A DNA stretch of 8,280 nucleotides from a virus (lineage: Duplodnaviria; Heunggongvirae; Uroviricota; Caudoviricetes): the IMG/VR virus record IMGVR_UViG_2703718778_000005. One strand, given 5' to 3'. A program made the position numbers and the translations under genes. Below are positions 192 through 7,328 of this stretch, in pieces. Positions within the stretch are counted from its first letter, which is position 1; every line of letters starts with the position of its first letter. A model generated the notes under the pieces. The model saw only the letters and a list, made by a program, of their open reading frames with translations. It had not been told where the DNA came from and made no database searches.

Positions 192-2078
192 TTACTCTTC
201 CATCGCCTGGCGGATCTGATCCAACGACGCTGGATCATCAATGGTCGTCAGATCTCCAGGATCGCGTCCTTCGCAAATCGCCTGGATCGTGCGGCGCAGC
301 ATTTTTCCGGATCGCGTTTTTGGCAATTGCGAGACAAACCAGACGTGCGCCGGGCGGCCAAAGTTGCCAATCTGGCTGTCCACCAGCGCCATAATCGCCT
401 TCTCTTGCGAATGCGCCACATCACGATCTTCCAGACTGTCGCTCTCTTTCGGAATGACAAACGCTACCGCCACCTGCCCTTTCAGCGCATCTTTCACCCC
501 AACCACCGCCACTTCGGCAACGCCCGGATGACTGGAAATACTCTCTTCAATCTCGCGCGTGCCCAGCCGATGCCCGGCAACGTTAATCACATCGTCAGTG
601 CGCCCGAGAATAAAGTGATAACCGTCAGCATCGCGGATGCCCCAGTCAAAGGTGGCGTACACCGGACGGGAAAACAGCGACCAGTACGTCTTCACAAAGC
701 GGTCGTCATCGCCCCAGATGGTCTGAATACACCCCGGCGGCAGCGGCCCTTCCACCACCAGCATCCCTTTCTCGTTGACGCCACACGGTTCGCCGGTGAC
801 TTCATTAAGCAACTGCACGTTATAGCCATACATCGGCACGCCGGGGCTTCCCAGACGCGTCGGCCTGTCGTCCAGACCGCGAGCAATCGCCATAATCGGC
901 CAGCCGGATTCGGTCTGCCAGTAGTTGTCGATGACCGGCACATCCAGCGTATTGCTCACCCAACTGGCGGTCGGCTCGTCCAGCGGTTCTCCAGCCAGAT
1001 AGAGCACTTCCAGCGACGAGAGATCGTGTTTGCGAATTTCAGCGGTAGGGAATTTTTTCAGCACGCGAATGGCGGTCGGCGCTGAGAACATCCGGCTAAC
1101 CTGATATTTCTCGACGATTTTCCACCACACGCCGCAGTCCGGCCAGGTCGGTAATCCTTCGTAAACGATAGTCGCCATCCCCGCCAGCAGCGGCGCGTAG
1201 ACGATATACGAATGCCCCACCACCCAGCCGATATCCGAAGCACAAAAGAACACACCGCCCGCTTTGCCGCCAAAAATGGTGTCCATCGAGGTCGCCAGCG
1301 CCACCGCATATCCGCCGACGTCACGCTGCACGCCTTTAGGTTTGCCGGTCGTGCCGGAGGTGTAGAGAATGCAGGAGGTTTCGTTGGATTCCAGCCACGC
1401 CACCGGTACCCGCGCGCCGATGTGTTGATGGCGCAACGACGCGAAATCGACATCCCGCCCGCTGACGCGCGCCATTTTCGCCAGCCCGCGATCCACCAGC
1501 AAAACATGGCGCGGCTGGTGCTGCGCCTGACTTATCGCATCGTCGAGCAATTTTTTATAGGGAATGATTTTGCCACCGCGCGCTCCGGCATCAGCCGAGA
1601 CAATCAGCACCGGTTTAGCATCATCAATTCGCGCCGCCACGCTGTGCGAGGCAAATCCACCAAACACCACCGAGTGAATAGCGCCAATGCGCGCGCAGGC
1701 CAGCAGGGTAATATGCGCTTCGGCAATCATCGGCATATACACCAGCACCCGATCGCCACGCTGCACGCCCAGCGAGCGCAGCATTGACGCCACCGCGTTT
1801 ACTTCGTCATGAAGCTGGCGAAAGGTAAAGGTGCGCTCTTCTTCTGTTTCCGAAGAGACGGCAATCAGCGCCAGCGCCTCTGGCTGTTTCTCCAGCCAGC
1901 GATCGATAGCGTTGTGACACAAGTTGGTTCGGCCTTCACAAAACCAACGGGCAAACGGCGGATTGCTGTGATCGAGCGTTTGCGTAAAGGGCGTCTGCCA
2001 GTCAATACGCCGGGCCTGCTCGGCCCAGAACTGCTCCGGTTCGTTAATCGAACGCTGATAAAATTCGCTAAAAGACAT
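192..2078 (-). CDS. prpE: Propionate--CoA ligase (propionyl-CoA synthetase), acyl-CoA synthetase family
   Basis: 628-aa ORF whose length and sequence match E. coli PrpE as I recall it; contains the AMP-binding motif YTSGTTGKPKG. ATG at 2076-2078 preceded on the minus strand by AGGAGAG with a 4-nt spacer; TAA stop at 192-194. Last gene of the operon. Confidence 0.96.
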   Translation of the reverse strand: MSFSEFYQRSINEPEQFWAEQARRIDWQTPFTQTLDHSNPPFARWFCEGRTNLCHNAIDRWLEKQPEALALIAVSSETEEERTFTFRQLHDEVNAVASMLRSLGVQRGDRVLVYMPMIAEAHITLLACARIGAIHSVVFGGFASHSVAARIDDAKPVLIVSADAGARGGKIIPYKKLLDDAISQAQHQPRHVLLVDRGLAKMARVSGRDVDFASLRHQHIGARVPVAWLESNETSCILYTSGTTGKPKGVQRDVGGYAVALATSMDTIFGGKAGGVFFCASDIGWVVGHSYIVYAPLLAGMATIVYEGLPTWPDCGVWWKIVEKYQVSRMFSAPTAIRVLKKFPTAEIRKHDLSSLEVLYLAGEPLDEPTASWVSNTLDVPVIDNYWQTESGWPIMAIARGLDDRPTRLGSPGVPMYGYNVQLLNEVTGEPCGVNEKGMLVVEGPLPPGCIQTIWGDDDRFVKTYWSLFSRPVYATFDWGIRDADGYHFILGRTDDVINVAGHRLGTREIEESISSHPGVAEVAVVGVKDALKGQVAVAFVIPKESDSLEDRDVAHSQEKAIMALVDSQIGNFGRPAHVWFVSQLPKTRSGKMLRRTIQAICEGRDPGDLTTIDDPASLDQIRQAMEE

Positions 2079-2117
2079 AATGCTCTCCTGTTGAACTTAC
2101 GCCTTACCGCCGTTTAC

Positions 2118-3569
2118 TTAAATGACGTACAGGTCGAGATACTCATTGACCGGCATCTGTTCCAGGCGAGCTCTGTCGAGAGAAACCTCCAGAATGCGCT
2201 GCTGCTGGCGAGTCGGGAACTGGCGCGCGAGATTGATTTTGAATTTATCCACCAGCTTCGGAATGCCATCCTGACGGCGGCGAGCATGACCAATGGGGTA
2301 CTCCACCACCACTTCTTCAAAGCGCGTGCCGTCGGTGAACTCAAGAGTAATGGCATTGGCGATGGCGCGTTTTTCCGGGTCGTGGTAGTCAGCGGTAAAC
2401 GTCGGATCTTCAAAGCAATTGATCTTCTCGCGCAGGGCGTCAATGCGTTTATCTTGCGCAACGTTGTCCTCGTAATCTGCCGCCGTTAAGCGCCCGAACA
2501 ACAGCGGGATCGCCACCATGTATTGAATGCAGTGGTCGCGGTCAGCCGGGTTATTGAGCGGCCCTTTTTTGTCGATGATGCGAATACAGGCTTCGTGGGT
2601 GCGAATGGTCACTTTTTCGATATCCGCCGCCGTTTTGCCTGCTGCTTGCATCTGTTCATAGAGCGTCATCGCCGCTTCAACTGCCGTCTGGGAGTGGAAC
2701 TCCGCCGGGAAGGAGATTTTGAACAGCACATTTTCCATGACGTAAGAACCGTACGGGCGCTGGAAGCGGAACGATTCACCTTTGAAGGAGACGTCGTAGA
2801 AGCCCCACACCGGCGCAGTCAGGGCTGACGGGTAACCCATTTCGCCCGTTTTCGCCATCAGTGCCAGACGTACCGCGCGGGAAGTGGCATCGCCCGCCGC
2901 CCAGGATTTACGCGTGCCGGTGTTCGGCGCATGGCGATAGGTGCGCAGCGACTGACCGTCCACCCACGCCAGCGAAACGGCGTTGAGAATTTCCTCGCGG
3001 GTCAGGCCAAGCATTTCGGCGACCACGGCGGTGGAAGCCACTTTCACTAACAGAACGTGGTCGAGGCCAACGCGGTTAAAGGAGTTTTCCAGCGCGATGC
3101 AGCCCTGAATTTCATGGGCTTTGATCATTCCGGTCAGCACCTGTTTCATGGTCAACGGCGCTTTGCCGCTGGCGACCGCGTTGCGCGAAAGCCAGTCTGC
3201 CGTTGCCAGAATGCCGCCGAGGTTGTCGGAAGGATGCCCCCACTCCGCCGCCAGCCAGGTATCGTTGAAATCGAGCCAACGGATCATCGCGCCGATGTTA
3301 AATGCCGCCTGGACGGGGTCGAGCTGGAACTGAGTTCCGGGGACGCGCACGCCGTTAGGTACGACGGTGCCGGGGACAATTGGCCCCAGCAGTTTTTTAC
3401 AGGCTGGGTATTCGAGAGCTTCAAGACCGCAGCCGAGCGTGTCGAGCAGGCAGTAATGTGCGGTGTCGTAGGCTACTTTGGAGCTGATTTCGTAGTTCAT
3501 GACGTAATCGACGATATCAACGATTTCACGATCAAATTCCGGGCGGATGTTGTTGATTTGAGCTGACAT
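2118..3569 (-). CDS. prpD: 2-methylcitrate dehydratase (MmgE/PrpD family)
   Basis: 483-aa ORF matching E. coli PrpD in length and sequence ([23 protein letters not shown]...EYLDLYVI). ATG at 3567-3569 with AAGGAA upstream; 39-bp gap to prpE. Confidence 0.96.
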
Positions 3570-3602
3570 TGGGTACGTTTCCTTATTGTTATTCGTAGAG
3601 GT

Positions 3603-4715
3603 TTACTGGCGCTTATCCAGCGCGACAAACTGGCGGTCTTCCGGTCCAACATAATTGGCGGAAGGACGGATAATTTTGTTGTCCTGACGTTGTTCGATAA
3701 TGTGCGCCGCCCAGCCGGTGACGCGGGCGATAACAAACAGTGGTGTGAACATCTCGGTGGGAACGCCCATCATGTTGTAGGAAACAGCAGAGAACCAGTC
3801 GAGATTGGGGAACATCTTTTTGCTCTCCCACATCACCGTTTCCAGGCGATCGGCGATGTTGTACATCTTCAGCGAGCCGCCTTCCTGCGAGAGCTGCTTC
3901 GCCACACGTTTAATCACCTGGTGGCGCGGGTCAGCGATGGTGTAAACCGGATGACCAAAACCAATGACCACTTCTTTGTTTTCCACGCGCTTGCGGATAT
4001 CTGCTTCGGCTTCGTCCGGCGTTTCGTAGCGTTGCTGGATCTCCAGCGACACTTCATTCGCCCCGCCGTGTTTTGGCCCGCGCAGTGCGCCAATCGCGCC
4101 AATAATCGCGGAATACATATCAGAGCCGGTGCCCGCAATCACCCGACTGGTAAAGGTGGAGGCGTTAAACTCGTGTTCGGCGTACAGCACCAGCGAGATA
4201 TGCATCGCCTTTTCCCAGCTTTGCGATGGCTTTTCGCCGTGCAGCAGATGCAGGAAGTGACCGCCGATGGAGTCGTCATCGGTTTCCGGTTGGATGCGTT
4301 CGCCGTTGTGGCTGTAGTGATACCAATAAAGGAGAATCGAGCTAAGCGACGCCAGCAGTTTGTCGGCAATATCCCGCGCGCCAGAGACGGTATGCCCCTC
4401 TTTTTCTGGCAGCGTGCAGCCGAGCGCGGAAACACCGGTGCGCATAACATCCATCGGGTGTGACGCCGCCGGTAAGGCTTCCAGCACGGTACGCACGTTA
4501 GCCGGTAAACCACGCAGGGCTTTCAGTTTCGTTTTGTAAGCGGCGAGTTCGTCACGGGTCGGCAGTTTGCCGTGGATCAGCAGATGAGCCACTTCTTCAA
4601 ATTCGCAATGTTCCGCCAGATCAAGAATATCGTAGCCACGGTAATGCAGGTCATTGCCACTTTTACCCACGGTGCAGAGCGCCGTATTGCCCGCCGGAAC
4701 GCCGGAAAGTGCCAC
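3603..4715 (-). CDS. prpC: 2-methylcitrate synthase, 5'-disrupted (N-terminus replaced at the prophage junction plus a frame break; probable pseudogene or N-truncated product)
   Basis: The 370-aa ORF from GTG at 4713-4715 matches E. coli PrpC from about residue 20 ([33 protein letters not shown]...) to the C-terminus (...FVALDKRQ). Codons matching residues ~10-17 (STHVIKPK) lie at 4746-4723 in a different frame, and no in-frame ATG or native N-terminus exists upstream. Confidence 0.85.
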
Positions 4716-4748
4716 CGATTTTTCGGTTTAATGACATGGGTACTGTAA

Positions 4749-4769
4749 CACCCCGCATAACGCGGGGTG
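4749..4769 (-). other. GC-rich hairpin (8-bp stem, 5-nt loop) downstream of int; weak or non-canonical terminator, or att-arm structure
   Basis: caccccgc-ataac-gcggggtg is a perfect 8-bp inverted repeat. On the minus strand it is followed by TTACAGTACCC, so there is no U-tract and it is not a canonical intrinsic terminator. Confidence 0.35.
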
Positions 4770-4775
4770 CTGAAC

Positions 4776-4788
4776 TATCAACAACTTA
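4776..4788. promoter_or_regulatory. Candidate IHF-binding site in the att arm
   Basis: TATCAACAACTTA fits the IHF consensus WATCAANNNNTTR exactly. A related motif ATCAACGAC recurs at 4806-4814. Confidence 0.25.
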
Positions 4789-4877: not shown

Positions 4878-5858
4878 TCAAACACCCAGTCCTCCACCAA
4901 GCGGATTTAGCGTAATCGCGTGCTGAAGAAAGTCCGGCGAAAGATGCGCATAAATCATCGTTTGCTTGATGCTGGCGTGCCCCATGATTTGCTGAAGCGC
5001 GATAATGTTTCCTCCGTTCATCATGAACCAGCTGGCGAACGTGTGGCGAAGTACGTGCGTTGACTGGCCCCGTGGTAAGTCAGGTTTTACACGCCGCAAC
5101 TGCTCGCGGAACTGAGCATAGTTCACATCAAAGAACGGCCCCGTTTCGCAGGTTTTGATCTCCCGCTCCAGCGCTTCCGAGATCGGCACCGTCCTTTTTT
5201 TGCCGTTCTTCGTTTTCAGAAAGGTCACACGCCCATGATTGACCTGCTCTGCCCGTAGCGTGCTTCCCTCATTCCACCGCGCCCCGGTACTGAGACACAG
5301 CAACGCCACCCGACGATTATCACCCTCCAGAAATTCCAGCAATCGGGCGATCTCCTGCTTTGTAAGGTAAGTCATCGGCGGCTGCGCCTCCCGTAGCGGC
5401 AGCAAACCGCGACAGGGATTTTCAACCCGAAATTCACCGAGTTTAATCAACGCGGTAAACATACCGGACAAACGATAGATATCGCGGTTAATGGTTGATG
5501 CGCTAATGCCATCTGTAAGCCGTTCGCCGCGATGCCTGGCAATTTCACGCTTATCAAGCCGGTTAACAGCCGGATTACCCAGCGCCCTGATTGTTTTTTC
5601 CAGTTGTTGCCTTTCGATTGCGCCGTTCTCCAGTGTCTGACCATGCAACAGCCACCAGATATCCAGCAATTCCCCAAGTGTGCGGCGATCAGTACTTGCG
5701 CCGAGCCATTCTTTTTTCTCGACGTTTGCCATCACATACCGCTCAAACAGGATAGCTTCCTGTTTTTTCTTGAAACGTCTGCGTATGCGTTTGCCTTCAC
5801 GACCACGCGGGTAAATATCCACCTGATATTGCCCCCCTTCGAGCTTCTTAATCGTCAT
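4878..5858 (-). CDS. int: Tyrosine site-specific integrase, P2/186/HP1 family
   Basis: 326-aa ORF. N-terminus MTIKKLEGGQYQVDIYPRGREGKRIRRRFKKKQEA is typical of P2-family integrases. C-terminal catalytic signature is present: TGARWNE (Arg), HVLRHTFAS (His-x-x-Arg), MIYAHL (Tyr nucleophile). Minus-strand RBS GGAGGG 7 nt upstream of ATG 5856-5858. Confidence 0.93.
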   Translation of the reverse strand: MTIKKLEGGQYQVDIYPRGREGKRIRRRFKKKQEAILFERYVMANVEKKEWLGASTDRRTLGELLDIWWLLHGQTLENGAIERQQLEKTIRALGNPAVNRLDKREIARHRGERLTDGISASTINRDIYRLSGMFTALIKLGEFRVENPCRGLLPLREAQPPMTYLTKQEIARLLEFLEGDNRRVALLCLSTGARWNEGSTLRAEQVNHGRVTFLKTKNGKKRTVPISEALEREIKTCETGPFFDVNYAQFREQLRRVKPDLPRGQSTHVLRHTFASWFMMNGGNIIALQQIMGHASIKQTMIYAHLSPDFLQHAITLNPLGGGLGV

Positions 5859-5924: not shown

Positions 5925-6248
5925 TTAACCAGTTTTGCGGACGGAGCGGCGCGACGTTGCCACATCTTCGCGCCCATCAGGGGAGAGAGTCGGGGCAATC
6001 TGCCCTGATTCCGGCGCAGTAGTATCAGTCATCAGCCACAGGGCGTACTTCTGAAACCGTGGGTGTGTTGTGATTTTGAGCAAAATTTCACTACCGACAC
6101 CATCCCTTCTCCCTGTCTCGTACTGTTTTTGAGTACTGGCAGGGACACCTGTAAGATCAAAGAATTGGCTTCTGGATAACCCTTCTGCATCTCTTATCAA
6201 ACGAATTTTTTCTCCTATCGAGCTTGACAGGGGTTCATATGACACCAT
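5925..6248 (-). CDS. Immunity repressor, P2 C-family
   Basis: 107-aa ORF with helix-turn-helix-like segment LSRSQFFDLTGVPASTQKQYETG and a C-terminal block WLMTDTTAPESGQIAPTLSP...KTG that closely parallels P2 C (...APESGQIAP...GQKTG) as I recall it. Located just upstream of and co-oriented with int, as in P2. RBS GAGGG 6 nt before the ATG. Confidence 0.85.
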   Translation of the reverse strand: MVSYEPLSSSIGEKIRLIRDAEGLSRSQFFDLTGVPASTQKQYETGRRDGVGSEILLKITTHPRFQKYALWLMTDTTAPESGQIAPTLSPDGREDVATSRRSVRKTG

Positions 6249-6345
6249 ATATTGCCCTCATTGGTTTCAATTGACACCATTCAATTAATACCGCTATAAG
6301 CGGATATAAACCGCCAATAGCACCAGAAAAAGGGGATTATTACAC
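6249..6345. promoter_or_regulatory. Lysis-lysogeny switch region between divergent C and cox (early and repressor promoters with operators)
   Basis: 97-bp AT-rich gap between divergent start codons. Contains TTGACA (6271-6276), the palindrome CCGCTATAAGCGG (6291-6303) and tandem 9-mers TATAAGCGG / TATAAACCG (6295-6303, 6305-6313) spaced 10 bp apart. Confidence 0.5.
6271..6300 (+). promoter_or_regulatory. Candidate sigma70 early promoter (Pe-like) driving cox and downstream genes
   Basis: TTGACA at 6271-6276, 18-bp spacer, TATAAG at 6295-6300. The -10 sits inside the tandem TATAA(G/A)C(G/C)G repeats, as expected if the repressor occludes the -10. Confidence 0.3.
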
Positions 6346-6627
6346 ATGAGAGACAGAGAGCTGGAGCGATATATCAACATCGGCTACCCAATTGATGCCG
6401 TCCCCGGCCCCAAATTCGCCGAGATGATCGGTAAACCGGCATCCGCTGTGAGTGACATGATTTCAGACGGAAAACTACCAGTTATTAAATGGCAGAACCC
6501 TAACGCTCTACGTTCACGCGCTGAAAACTGGATCTACATACCAGAATTCAACAAAGCGATGCGCGAAGCATTCTTTGCTCGCCCGAAAGAGCAACGGGAC
6601 GCATGGTTGTTGTGGATTGGATTGTGA
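6346..6627 (+). CDS. cox: Cox-family excisionase / switch repressor (P2 Cox-like)
   Basis: 93-aa ORF. FAEMIGKPASAVSDMISDGKLPVI...WIYIPEFN...RPKEQRDAWLLWIGL parallels P2 Cox (FAKLIGKSTGAVRRMIDKGKLPVI...WVYLPAWN...RPKEIRDGWLMWLGL) as I recall it. Divergent from C. Confidence 0.85.
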   Translation: MRDRELERYINIGYPIDAVPGPKFAEMIGKPASAVSDMISDGKLPVIKWQNPNALRSRAENWIYIPEFNKAMREAFFARPKEQRDAWLLWIGL

Positions 6628-6703
6628 TTACGAACGGGAAGTGACAGCAAAGTAAACAACAATATTAACAAAAGCCAGGGGGACAAAATTAGATTTTGGG
6701 GGA

Positions 6704-6952
6704 ATGAAGGAGAGAGAAGTGAGCAGTAATACACCAGGTTTACGGGATATGCAAATCATAGATAACCGCCCCACAGAAAAAGAGTTATACAGCCTTTTTC
6801 GGTTCATCATCGTACGCCAACAATCAGGCAGACTGGATCCAACACGAGCAAGCGAAGAATGGAGACAGGTATTTGCCGATTATGAAGCGGATGTAATTGG
6901 GTGTGTCATGGCTGAAGTGGTTTTTAGGCTAACAAGAGACGAATCACTGTAA
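6704..6952 (+). CDS. Hypothetical early protein in the orf78-equivalent position after cox; start uncertain
   Basis: 82-aa ORF from ATG 6704, or 77 aa from in-frame GTG 6719, which has a much better RBS (AAGGAG at 6707-6712, 6-nt spacer). No family recognised. Confidence 0.5.
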   Translation: MKEREVSSNTPGLRDMQIIDNRPTEKELYSLFRFIIVRQQSGRLDPTRASEEWRQVFADYEADVIGCVMAEVVFRLTRDESL

Positions 6953-6977: not shown

Positions 6978-7328
6978 ATGAAACAACAACGAAACGCGCA
7001 CCCCCATAACAACACTGAACGCCACAAATTGCGCAGTGGCGCAGAACGCAACGTTGCGAGTCACTCCCACCGTAAAACTGGTACGACCGCAACTACCGAA
7101 ATCCACGCAACACCAGACGGCCATCCGGTAAAACAAACCGGCAAGCACACCTGGGCGATTGGCGACACTGGCATCGTTATTCACAAAAGTTTTCGTAGCC
7201 CTGTTACTGGCAGATTTAATTTTACCCTGACTCGCGGAGATGATTACTTCGGACAGGACTTCACATTTTTTGAAGCGTTAAGAACGGTCGATCGGTTAAT
7301 GACTGGTCGTAATTTTCACGCTAAATGA
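6978..7328 (+). CDS. Hypothetical early protein with basic, His/Thr/Asn-rich low-complexity N-terminal half
   Basis: 116-aa ORF co-oriented with the early operon, GAGGA 10 nt upstream. N-terminal ~55 aa are low complexity (NAHPHNNTERHKLRSGAERNVASHSHRKTGTTATTEIHATPDGHPVKQTGKH); C-terminal half looks globular. A perfect 12-bp palindrome CGCAACGTTGCG lies inside at 7047-7058. Confidence 0.45.
   Translation: MKQQRNAHPHNNTERHKLRSGAERNVASHSHRKTGTTATTEIHATPDGHPVKQTGKHTWAIGDTGIVIHKSFRSPVTGRFNFTLTRGDDYFGQDFTFFEALRTVDRLMTGRNFHAK

What the first reader, a model, noticed from the sequence alone, without database searches (positions are those of the whole stretch)
6704..6952. Start-codon ambiguity in the first gene after cox
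The longest ORF starts at ATG 6704 with a poorly spaced G-run, but an in-frame GTG at 6719 sits 6 nt after a perfect AAGGAG. The real protein is probably 77 aa from the GTG, a size that fits the orf78 position of P2-type early operons.
Basis: seen in the sequence. Interest (0 to 1): 0.22.

Follow-up and report, generated by a model that had tools for sequence, protein, structure and literature searches.

The report
Ambiguous start of small prophage gene

Summary
ATG 6704 lies 1 nt after a G-run. AAGGAG (6707-6712) lies 6 nt before an in-frame GTG at 6719. The ORF follows a real cox gene in a P2-like prophage inserted in E. coli prpC.

Thirty-one related loci give 11 distinct sequences, and this is the only start kept in all four lineages that share the leader:
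- One lineage changed GTG to GAG.
- One has a +1 T insertion between GTG and ATG 6749, so both upstream starts are out of frame.
- One has an in-frame TAG two codons before the ATG.

Homologous proteins are 64-67 aa. Indels occur only upstream of 6749. The conserved product is therefore the 67-aa protein, and 6704-6748 is an unconstrained leader that happens to be open and in frame here.

GTG 6719 still has by far the best ribosome-binding signal, so a 77-aa form with a dispensable 10-residue tail is probably made in this strain. NCBI records for this exact sequence are split between 77 aa and 65 aa.

The "orf78 size" argument fails: P2 Orf78 is 56 aa and unrelated. The function is unknown, and the protein family is an orphan confined to E. 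coli prophages. Interest is low.

The parts
6224..6253 (+). Pe-like early promoter (TTGACA-18-TATATT) overlapping the 5' end of the divergent C-type repressor gene. Context only.
   Evidence: Consensus scan, 11 of 12 matches. The arrangement matches the annotated Pe of P2. Not tested functionally.
6346..6627 (+). cox gene (93 aa), the gene upstream of the finding.
   Evidence: Pfam Phage_Cox, E = 8e-24. PGAP names the homologue in L001 'Cox family DNA-binding protein'. pN/pS is 0.01 against L001.
6628..6748 (+). Leader of about 120 nt between cox and the conserved start. It is non-coding in sister lineages. It is open and in frame with the gene from 6656 onward in this lineage only.
   Evidence: Alignment of 11 distinct sequences. 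Among the leader-sharing lineages, 5 alignment columns between the cox stop and 6748 contain indels, and none lie in 6749-6949. The leader folds no better than shuffled sequence (z = +1.16). No Rfam match.
6654..6681 (+). 28-nt block inside the leader that is identical in the 83%-identical relative L001, although its upstream flank has diverged. Function unknown.
   Evidence: Pairwise alignment. It is the longest exact run in the intergenic region; the flank 6625-6654 is 13 of 30 identical.
6704..6706 (+). ATG, start candidate 1 (82 aa). Very unlikely to be used.
   Evidence: The G-run SD has a 1-nt spacer. The ATG is absent in L001 and out of frame in L020-L023. No public annotation uses it.
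6707..6712 (+). AAGGAG, a Shine-Dalgarno-like hexamer.
   Evidence: Sequence. Duplex energy -8.8 kcal/mol. It is kept in L005 and L020-L023 and weakened to AAGGCG in L001.
6719..6721 (+). GTG, start candidate 2 (77 aa). It has the strongest initiation signal but is not conserved as the start of this gene.
   Evidence: signal strength. (GAG in L005/L024; out of frame in L020-L023; shifted and stop-interrupted in L001). (NCBI 77-aa annotation, P0008).
6749..6952 (+). Conserved ORF from ATG 6749 to the TAA stop. It encodes a 67-aa orphan protein with three predicted helices.
   Evidence: It is the only start present and in frame in all four leader-sharing lineages. Homologues are 64-67 aa. It is the only frame open in 11 of 11 distinct sequences, and it has no indels. 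The AF2 model has helices at 10-25, 36-42 and 47-63, with mean pLDDT 63.6.
6978..7328 (+). DUF4761 gene, the invariable downstream neighbour of the small ORF.
   Evidence: Pfam DUF4761, E = 3e-31. The synteny holds in every related locus, whatever immunity module lies upstream.

Best explanation
The finding is the 5' end of a small, fast-evolving orphan gene. It is the first gene after cox in the early operon of a P2-like prophage inserted in the 5' end of E. coli prpC. The conserved, functionally relevant product is the 67-aa protein starting at ATG 6749; the family is 64-67 aa, with the helical core starting about residue 26 of the 82-aa ORF.

The 45 nt at 6704-6748 belong to a leader of about 120 nt that is not under coding constraint. 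In this lineage the leader happens to be open and in frame. Its AAGGAG-N6-GTG is the strongest local ribosome-binding signal. Ribosomes therefore probably also, or mainly, start at GTG 6719 and add a dispensable, unconserved 10-residue tail, giving 77 aa. ATG 6704 is not used.

Shown: the conservation pattern, the frame disruptions in relatives, and the signal strengths. Inferred: which start is actually used in this strain.
For: 1. Homologues are 64-67 aa and begin at or just after the Met16 equivalent. RefSeq annotates 64 aa in every complete E. coli genome examined where the gene is annotated.
2. In the alignment of 11 distinct sequences from 31 loci, ATG 6749 is kept in all four leader-sharing lineages.
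3. GTG is GAG in L005/L024.
4. A +1 T insertion in L020-L023 puts ATG 6704 and GTG 6719 out of frame. From the ATG they read a 20-aa ORF that ends inside the gene. NCBI annotates 67 aa there.
5. L001 and L028-L031 have TAG two codons before the ATG.
6. Indel columns occur only upstream of 6749, and none lie in 6749-6949.
7. The + frame is the only one open in 11 of 11 sequences.
8. In the AF2 model, residues 1-9 of the 67-aa form are unstructured, so an extension adds to an already floppy tail.
9. For use of GTG in this strain: SD energy is -8.8 kcal/mol at near-optimal spacing, against -4.1 (-3.2 for the site picked) with poor spacing for ATG 6749. Gene callers choose GTG when it is present (L012-L019).
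Against: ATG 6749 has only a weak, badly spaced SD, with a relative rate of about 0.45 against 10.7 for GTG in my rough model. In this strain the 67-aa form may therefore be a minor product. Sampling is narrow: four leader lineages, all from E. coli. Weak SDs are the rule for the conserved start across the family, so expression level is uncertain everywhere. pN/pS is high (0.65) and there is no excess of third-position changes, so the coding evidence rests mainly on frame maintenance. There are no expression or protein data.
Confidence: 0.72

Rival explanations
1. One reading: GTG 6719 is the true, selected start and the functional protein is 77 aa.
For: A perfect AAGGAG sits 6 nt upstream, and this is the strongest predicted initiation site in the neighbourhood. 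The 77-aa form (P0008) is annotated for this exact sequence in at least 7 NCBI assemblies and one Logan contig. AAGGAG plus GTG is also present in L020-L023.
Against: GTG is lost in L005/L024. It is out of frame in L020-L023 and disrupted by a stop in the L001 type, while the downstream ORF stays intact. No homologue conserves residues 6-15. NCBI's other records for the same DNA give 65 aa. The orf78 size analogy is invalid.
Confidence: 0.15
2. The SD-GTG in the leader is a conserved ribosome-loading site. It starts a short upstream ORF whose translation delivers ribosomes to the main ORF, which lacks its own SD (translational coupling). In the window lineage this upstream ORF has become fused in frame to the gene.
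For: An SD plus GTG lies about 30 nt upstream in three of four lineages, in three different frames. In L020 the upstream frame ends at a TAA whose last base is 17 nt from the A of the main ATG (1501-1517). In L001 the GTG frame ends in a TGA that overlaps the second ATG as ATGA (sequence read). The main start has a weak SD in every lineage. Group-2 loci show a parallel: a GTG overlaps the upstream stop codon, in frame in L006 and frameshifted in L003 and L007-L009.
Against: L005/L024 lack the GTG altogether. Any out-of-frame reading of AT-rich sequence meets a stop quickly, so the short ORFs may be accidental. The leader has no structure that would need unfolding (z = +1.16). The GTG in L001 is not at the homologous position. 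The sample is very small.
Confidence: 0.1
3. ATG 6704 is the start and the protein is 82 aa, the longest ORF.
For: ATG is the preferred start codon. It is in frame here and in L005.
Against: The only SD-like element (GGGGG) is 1 nt away, and the spacing penalty makes initiation negligible. The ATG is absent in L001 and out of frame in L020-L023. It was not chosen by any caller, even in L005, where GTG is missing.
Confidence: 0.02
4. The ORF is not a real gene. It is an accidentally open frame in a conserved non-coding spacer.
For: There is no hit in Pfam, PHROGs, NCBIfam, PADLOC or PDB. pN/pS is 0.65, and variable sites are spread equally over codon positions. PGAP calls no CDS there in strain KY176. 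The AF2 model has low confidence.
Against: This is the only one of six frames open in all 11 distinct sequences. There are no indels over 171-201 nt despite about 37% variable sites, while the adjacent leader has many indels. The stop position is the same everywhere. Some lineage pairs give pN/pS of 0.13-0.29.
Confidence: 0.04

Closest known systems
Uncharacterised 64-67-aa hypothetical protein family of E. coli P2-like prophages (e.g. WP_016237836.1, WP_001537130.1; clusters P0001-P0005 here)
   Same: 67-97% amino-acid identity over the core. Always immediately upstream of the DUF4761 gene in the early operon.
   Different: The window lineage carries an in-frame open leader with its own SD and GTG, so it can be read as 77 or 82 aa. 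Most relatives can only give 64-67 aa.
Bacteriophage P2 Orf78 (NP_046789.1)
   Same: Same slot: first gene after cox in a P2-type early operon. Small protein of unknown function.
   Different: 56 aa, not 78. No detectable sequence similarity (tblastn of the phage collection found nothing). It starts 10 nt after cox, whereas here a 76-121-nt leader intervenes.
Citrobacter phage Shae_phiSM gene Shae_045 (Xuanwuvirus, Peduoviridae)
   Same: First gene after a related cox in the nearest sequenced phage. Similar size, 68 aa.
   Different: A hydrophobic, membrane-like sequence with no similarity. The post-cox slot holds unrelated small genes in different P2-like phages.
Upstream-ORF or leader-peptide translational coupling in bacterial and phage operons
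   Same: In relatives L020-L023 and L001, an SD plus GTG opens a short frame of about 14-15 codons that ends within or next to the start of the main ORF, which has a weak SD.
   Different: In the window itself there is no separate upstream ORF, because the frame is fused to the gene. No leader structure is predicted. Coupling is untested.

Membership tests
P2-type lysogeny switch and early operon (int - C - Pc/Pe - cox - early genes) | Cox-family protein encoded as the first gene of the rightward operon | tested here: met
   Pfam Phage_Cox, E = 8e-24, for 6346-6627.
P2-type lysogeny switch and early operon (int - C - Pc/Pe - cox - early genes) | Divergently transcribed small HTH repressor and a tyrosine integrase next to it, with a sigma-70 promoter facing cox | tested here: met
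   An HTH_31/HTH_3 107-aa ORF at 5925-6248(-) and an integrase at 4878-5858(-). TTGACA-18-TATATT at 6224-6253(+). The order matches the P2 annotation. Promoter activity was not tested.
P2 Orf78 family | Sequence similarity to P2 Orf78 | tested here: not met
   BLASTP gave no alignment at E <= 100. tblastn against 50,697 phage records gave no match at E <= 1.
   P2 Orf78 is 56 aa (26291-26461). The number 78 corresponds to map position (26291/33593 = 78%), not length.
64-67-aa hypothetical protein family upstream of DUF4761 in E. coli prophages | Significant sequence similarity over the core (about residues 26-82 of the 82-aa ORF) | tested here: met
   phmmer E = 7e-21 to 9e-34, 67-97% identity. 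Thirty-five alignment columns are invariant.
64-67-aa hypothetical protein family upstream of DUF4761 in E. coli prophages | Protein begins at the Met16-Ile19 equivalent (length 64-67 aa) | tested here: inconclusive
   ATG 6749 is present and conserved. The window also offers an in-frame GTG 6719 with a much better SD. Which one is used cannot be settled from sequence.
64-67-aa hypothetical protein family upstream of DUF4761 in E. coli prophages | Synteny: immediately 5' of a DUF4761 gene in the early operon | tested here: met
   DUF4761 lies at 6978-7328. The order is the same in all related loci.
Upstream-ORF translational coupling | A separate short ORF with its own SD that ends at or near the main start codon | tested here: not met
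   In the window the upstream frame has no stop and runs into the gene. The feature is met by sequence only in relatives L020-L023 and L001.
Upstream-ORF translational coupling | Main-ORF translation depends on upstream-ORF translation | not testable with these tools
   This needs reporter fusions or ribosome profiling.

The most novel reading that the evidence does not exclude
The SD-GTG element in the leader is a conserved ribosome-loading upstream ORF. It drives translation of a post-cox gene that lacks its own SD, regardless of reading frame: in frame here, +1 in L020-L023, and another frame in the L001 type. The gene's N-terminus would then drift between 'upstream ORF' and 'extension' states during prophage evolution. 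The invariant 28-nt block 6654-6681 would be a further unrecognised regulatory site of the early operon.
Probability: 0.1. Interest if true: 0.3.

Novelty: already known. Interest (0 to 1): 0.1.

Why it matters
It matters mainly for annotation hygiene. The same DNA is deposited in NCBI as a 77-aa protein (GTG start) and as a 65-aa protein (from an ATC codon), and it is not annotated at all in one complete genome. Comparative data point to a 67-aa conserved product. The case shows that the best Shine-Dalgarno match and the evolutionarily conserved start can disagree. It also shows that the slot after cox in P2-like phages holds unrelated, fast-evolving small genes of unknown function. It opens no long-standing question.

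Tried and rejected
- Function searches for the protein all came back empty: Pfam, PHROGs, NCBIfam, PADLOC and PDB sequence profiles.
- A profile HMM search of 1.84 billion cluster representatives found only the family itself, plus two repeat proteins (P0006, P0007). Their multi-stretch hits are repeat artefacts.
- Scans of genome contigs, viral contigs and metagenome contigs, using peptide patterns and the 26-nt leader block, found no further relatives.
- tblastn against the phage collection found nothing.
- The AlphaFold model had low confidence (pLDDT 63.6). Foldseek against PDB gave no hit with E < 3.7, so no fold assignment is claimed.
- Homology to P2 Orf78 and to Shae_045 was tested and rejected.
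- Leader RNA structure as a riboswitch, attenuator or start-sequestering element was rejected. The leader folds no better than shuffles (z = +1.16) and has no Rfam match.
- The promoter and terminator scan found nothing inside the leader.
- The ATC 6755 start used by some NCBI records looks like an artefact of homology-guided start placement. ATC is an extremely rare initiator in E. coli (established knowledge).

Full report
**Context**

- The window carries prpE, prpD and a 5'-truncated prpC on the minus strand (192-4715).
- The left end of a P2-like prophage follows: a tyrosine integrase (4878-5858, -), a small HTH C-type repressor (5925-6248, -), a Pe-like promoter (TTGACA-18-TATATT, 6224-6253, +), and cox (6346-6627, +; Pfam Phage_Cox, E = 8e-24).
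- After cox come the ORF in question (6704-6952), a DUF4761 gene (6978-7328), a 71-aa ORF and a DUF4754 gene.
- The host is E. coli. The same prophage sits at the same prpC site in strain JNEC-KY176 (83% identity). Eleven other E. coli contigs share an identical 330-nt stretch with the window.

**Checking the observation**

- Duplex energies with the 16S 3' end are -8.8 kcal/mol for AAGGAG at good spacing and -8.4 for the G-run, which has essentially no spacer.
- I built a simplified thermodynamic initiation model from SD hybridisation, a spacing penalty, a start-codon term and local unfolding. Its relative rates are 10.7 for GTG 6719, 1.2 for ATG 6704, 0.45 for ATG 6749, 3.9 for cox and 2.1 for the DUF4761 gene. 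The model is rough, so only the ranking should be trusted.
- SD-plus-start motifs occur 5 times in the window against 2.66 expected. One inside a given 45-nt stretch is unlikely by chance, at about 0.7%. Four of the five AAGGAG hexamers in the window lie antisense to prp genes.

**Comparative evidence**

- A search of 5.8 billion proteins found only five 90%-identity clusters, all from E. coli and all 64-67 aa. The exceptions are two Logan-called 82-aa versions (P0003, P0017) of a different lineage.
- I recovered 31 loci containing 11 distinct sequences and aligned the 330 nt that end at the stop codon.
- Four lineages share the window's leader:
  - (a) The window type (12 identical copies plus L004) has all three starts in frame.
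  - (b) L005/L024 have GTG changed to GAG. ATG 6704 is still in frame, yet the callers chose 67 or 65 aa.
  - (c) L020-L023 carry a different Cox and integrase. AAGGAG and GTG are kept, but a +1 T (GGTTTTACGGG) puts both upstream starts out of frame. Read from the ATG, they give a 20-aa ORF ending inside the gene. NCBI annotates 67 aa, MQIIDKR....
  - (d) L001 and L028-L031 have AAGGCG, indels and an in-frame TAG two codons before the ATG.
- ATG 6749 is the only start conserved in all four lineages.
- A second group (L003, L006-L009, and all other complete E. coli genomes with a match) shares DNA only from about 6778 onward. It starts at an ATG aligned with window codon 19 and is preceded by AGGTG 5 nt upstream, giving 64 aa. 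RefSeq annotates it this way throughout.
- Among the leader-sharing lineages, five alignment columns between the cox stop and 6748 contain indels. One lies in 6704-6718 and one in 6719-6748. None lie in 6749-6949.
- The + frame is the only one of six that is open in all 11 sequences.

**Is it a gene, and what does it do?**

- Frame maintenance and the fixed stop position argue that it is a gene.
- Constraint is weak. pN/pS is 0.65 against L001, compared with 0.01 for cox, 0.05 for int and 0.25 for DUF4761. Variable sites are spread evenly over codon positions.
- No family, defence-system, structure or Rfam match exists.
- An HMM search of 1.84 billion representatives finds only the family itself.
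- AlphaFold gives a low-confidence three-helix model (pLDDT 63.6) with an unstructured N-terminus, and it has no fold match.
- The function therefore remains unknown. The safest description is a fast-evolving accessory early protein. It travels with the DUF4761 module rather than with the immunity module.

**The orf78 comparison**

- P2 Orf78 occupies the same slot but is 56 aa. It has no similarity to this protein, and its function is unknown.
- The numbers in the P2 orf names follow map position: 26291/33593 = 78%, 27022 = 80%, 27246 = 81%. This is my inference from the coordinates. The coincidence of 77 aa with '78' therefore means nothing.
- The nearest sequenced phage, Shae_phiSM, has yet another unrelated 68-aa gene in this slot.

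**Public annotation**

- The exact window sequence is deposited both as 77 aa from GTG (P0008) and as 65 aa from the ATC codon at 6755 (P0009).
- The 82-aa and 67-aa forms of this exact sequence are absent from the collection.
- PGAP calls no CDS at all in strain KY176. The ambiguity is real and already visible in the databases.

**Conclusion**

- The conserved product is the 67-aa protein from ATG 6749.
- 6704-6748 is leader sequence that is open and in frame only in this lineage.
- In this strain GTG 6719 is probably used as well, giving a 77-aa form with a dispensable tail.
- ATG 6704 is not used.
- A speculative alternative has about 10% probability. In it, SD-GTG is a frame-independent ribosome-loading upstream ORF for a gene that lacks a good SD of its own.
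- The finding is an ordinary annotation issue, so interest is low.

Noticed in passing
window 4700-4780 (minus strand): The prophage is inserted in the 5' end of prpC. Homology to K-12 prpC begins at about 4746, which is codon 9-10, so the native start and the prpB-side promoter are separated from prpC. The window also has A5 (4719-4723) where K-12 and L001 have A6. That shifts the frame, so only GTG 4715 is in frame (370 aa against 389 aa in K-12). A hairpin CACCCCGC-GTTAT-GCGGGGTG (4749-4769) sits at the prophage edge.
   Followed up: partly
window 6654-6681: A 28-nt block (AAACAACAATATTAACAAAAGCCAGGGG) in the leader between cox and the ORF is identical in the 83%-identical relative L001, although the upstream flank 6625-6654 is only 13 of 30 identical. 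The sequence is also unchanged in the other leader-sharing lineages except for one G-to-A at its last base in L020/L022. There is no promoter, terminator or Rfam match, and no exact copy in the genome or metagenome collections.
   Followed up: partly
window 5925-6248 (-) versus L001 2634-2957: The C-type repressor is much more diverged between the window and KY176 (79% nt identity, pN 0.154) than the flanking integrase (94.6%) and cox (90.7%, pN 0.005). This suggests a different immunity specificity with the same Cox.
   Followed up: no
window about 6778: A mosaic junction lies inside the small gene. Prophages with unrelated immunity modules (175-aa Cox-like regulators and other HTH repressors) share DNA with the window only from about codon 25 onward and through the DUF4761 and DUF4754 genes.
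   Followed up: partly
L006 3001-3055; L003 2426-2481: Group-2 relatives show the same kind of flip. A GTG overlapping the upstream gene's stop (GTGA), preceded by GGAGG, opens an 18-codon extension. It is in frame in L006 (82 aa) but frameshifted by an extra T in L003, L008 and L009; L007 has a different upstream sequence.
   Followed up: partly
window 6755-6757; L004 3001; L024 1501: NCBI records annotate a 65-aa product that starts at an ATC codon in this and the L005-type sequences. This is apparently homology-guided start placement. One complete genome (KY176) has no CDS here at all.
   Followed up: yes
window 6749-6949: The gene has unusually weak purifying selection. pN/pS is 0.65 against L001 and up to about 1 between groups. 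The window and L005 differ by 7 nonsynonymous and 0 synonymous changes in the core. Variable sites are even across codon positions.
   Followed up: partly
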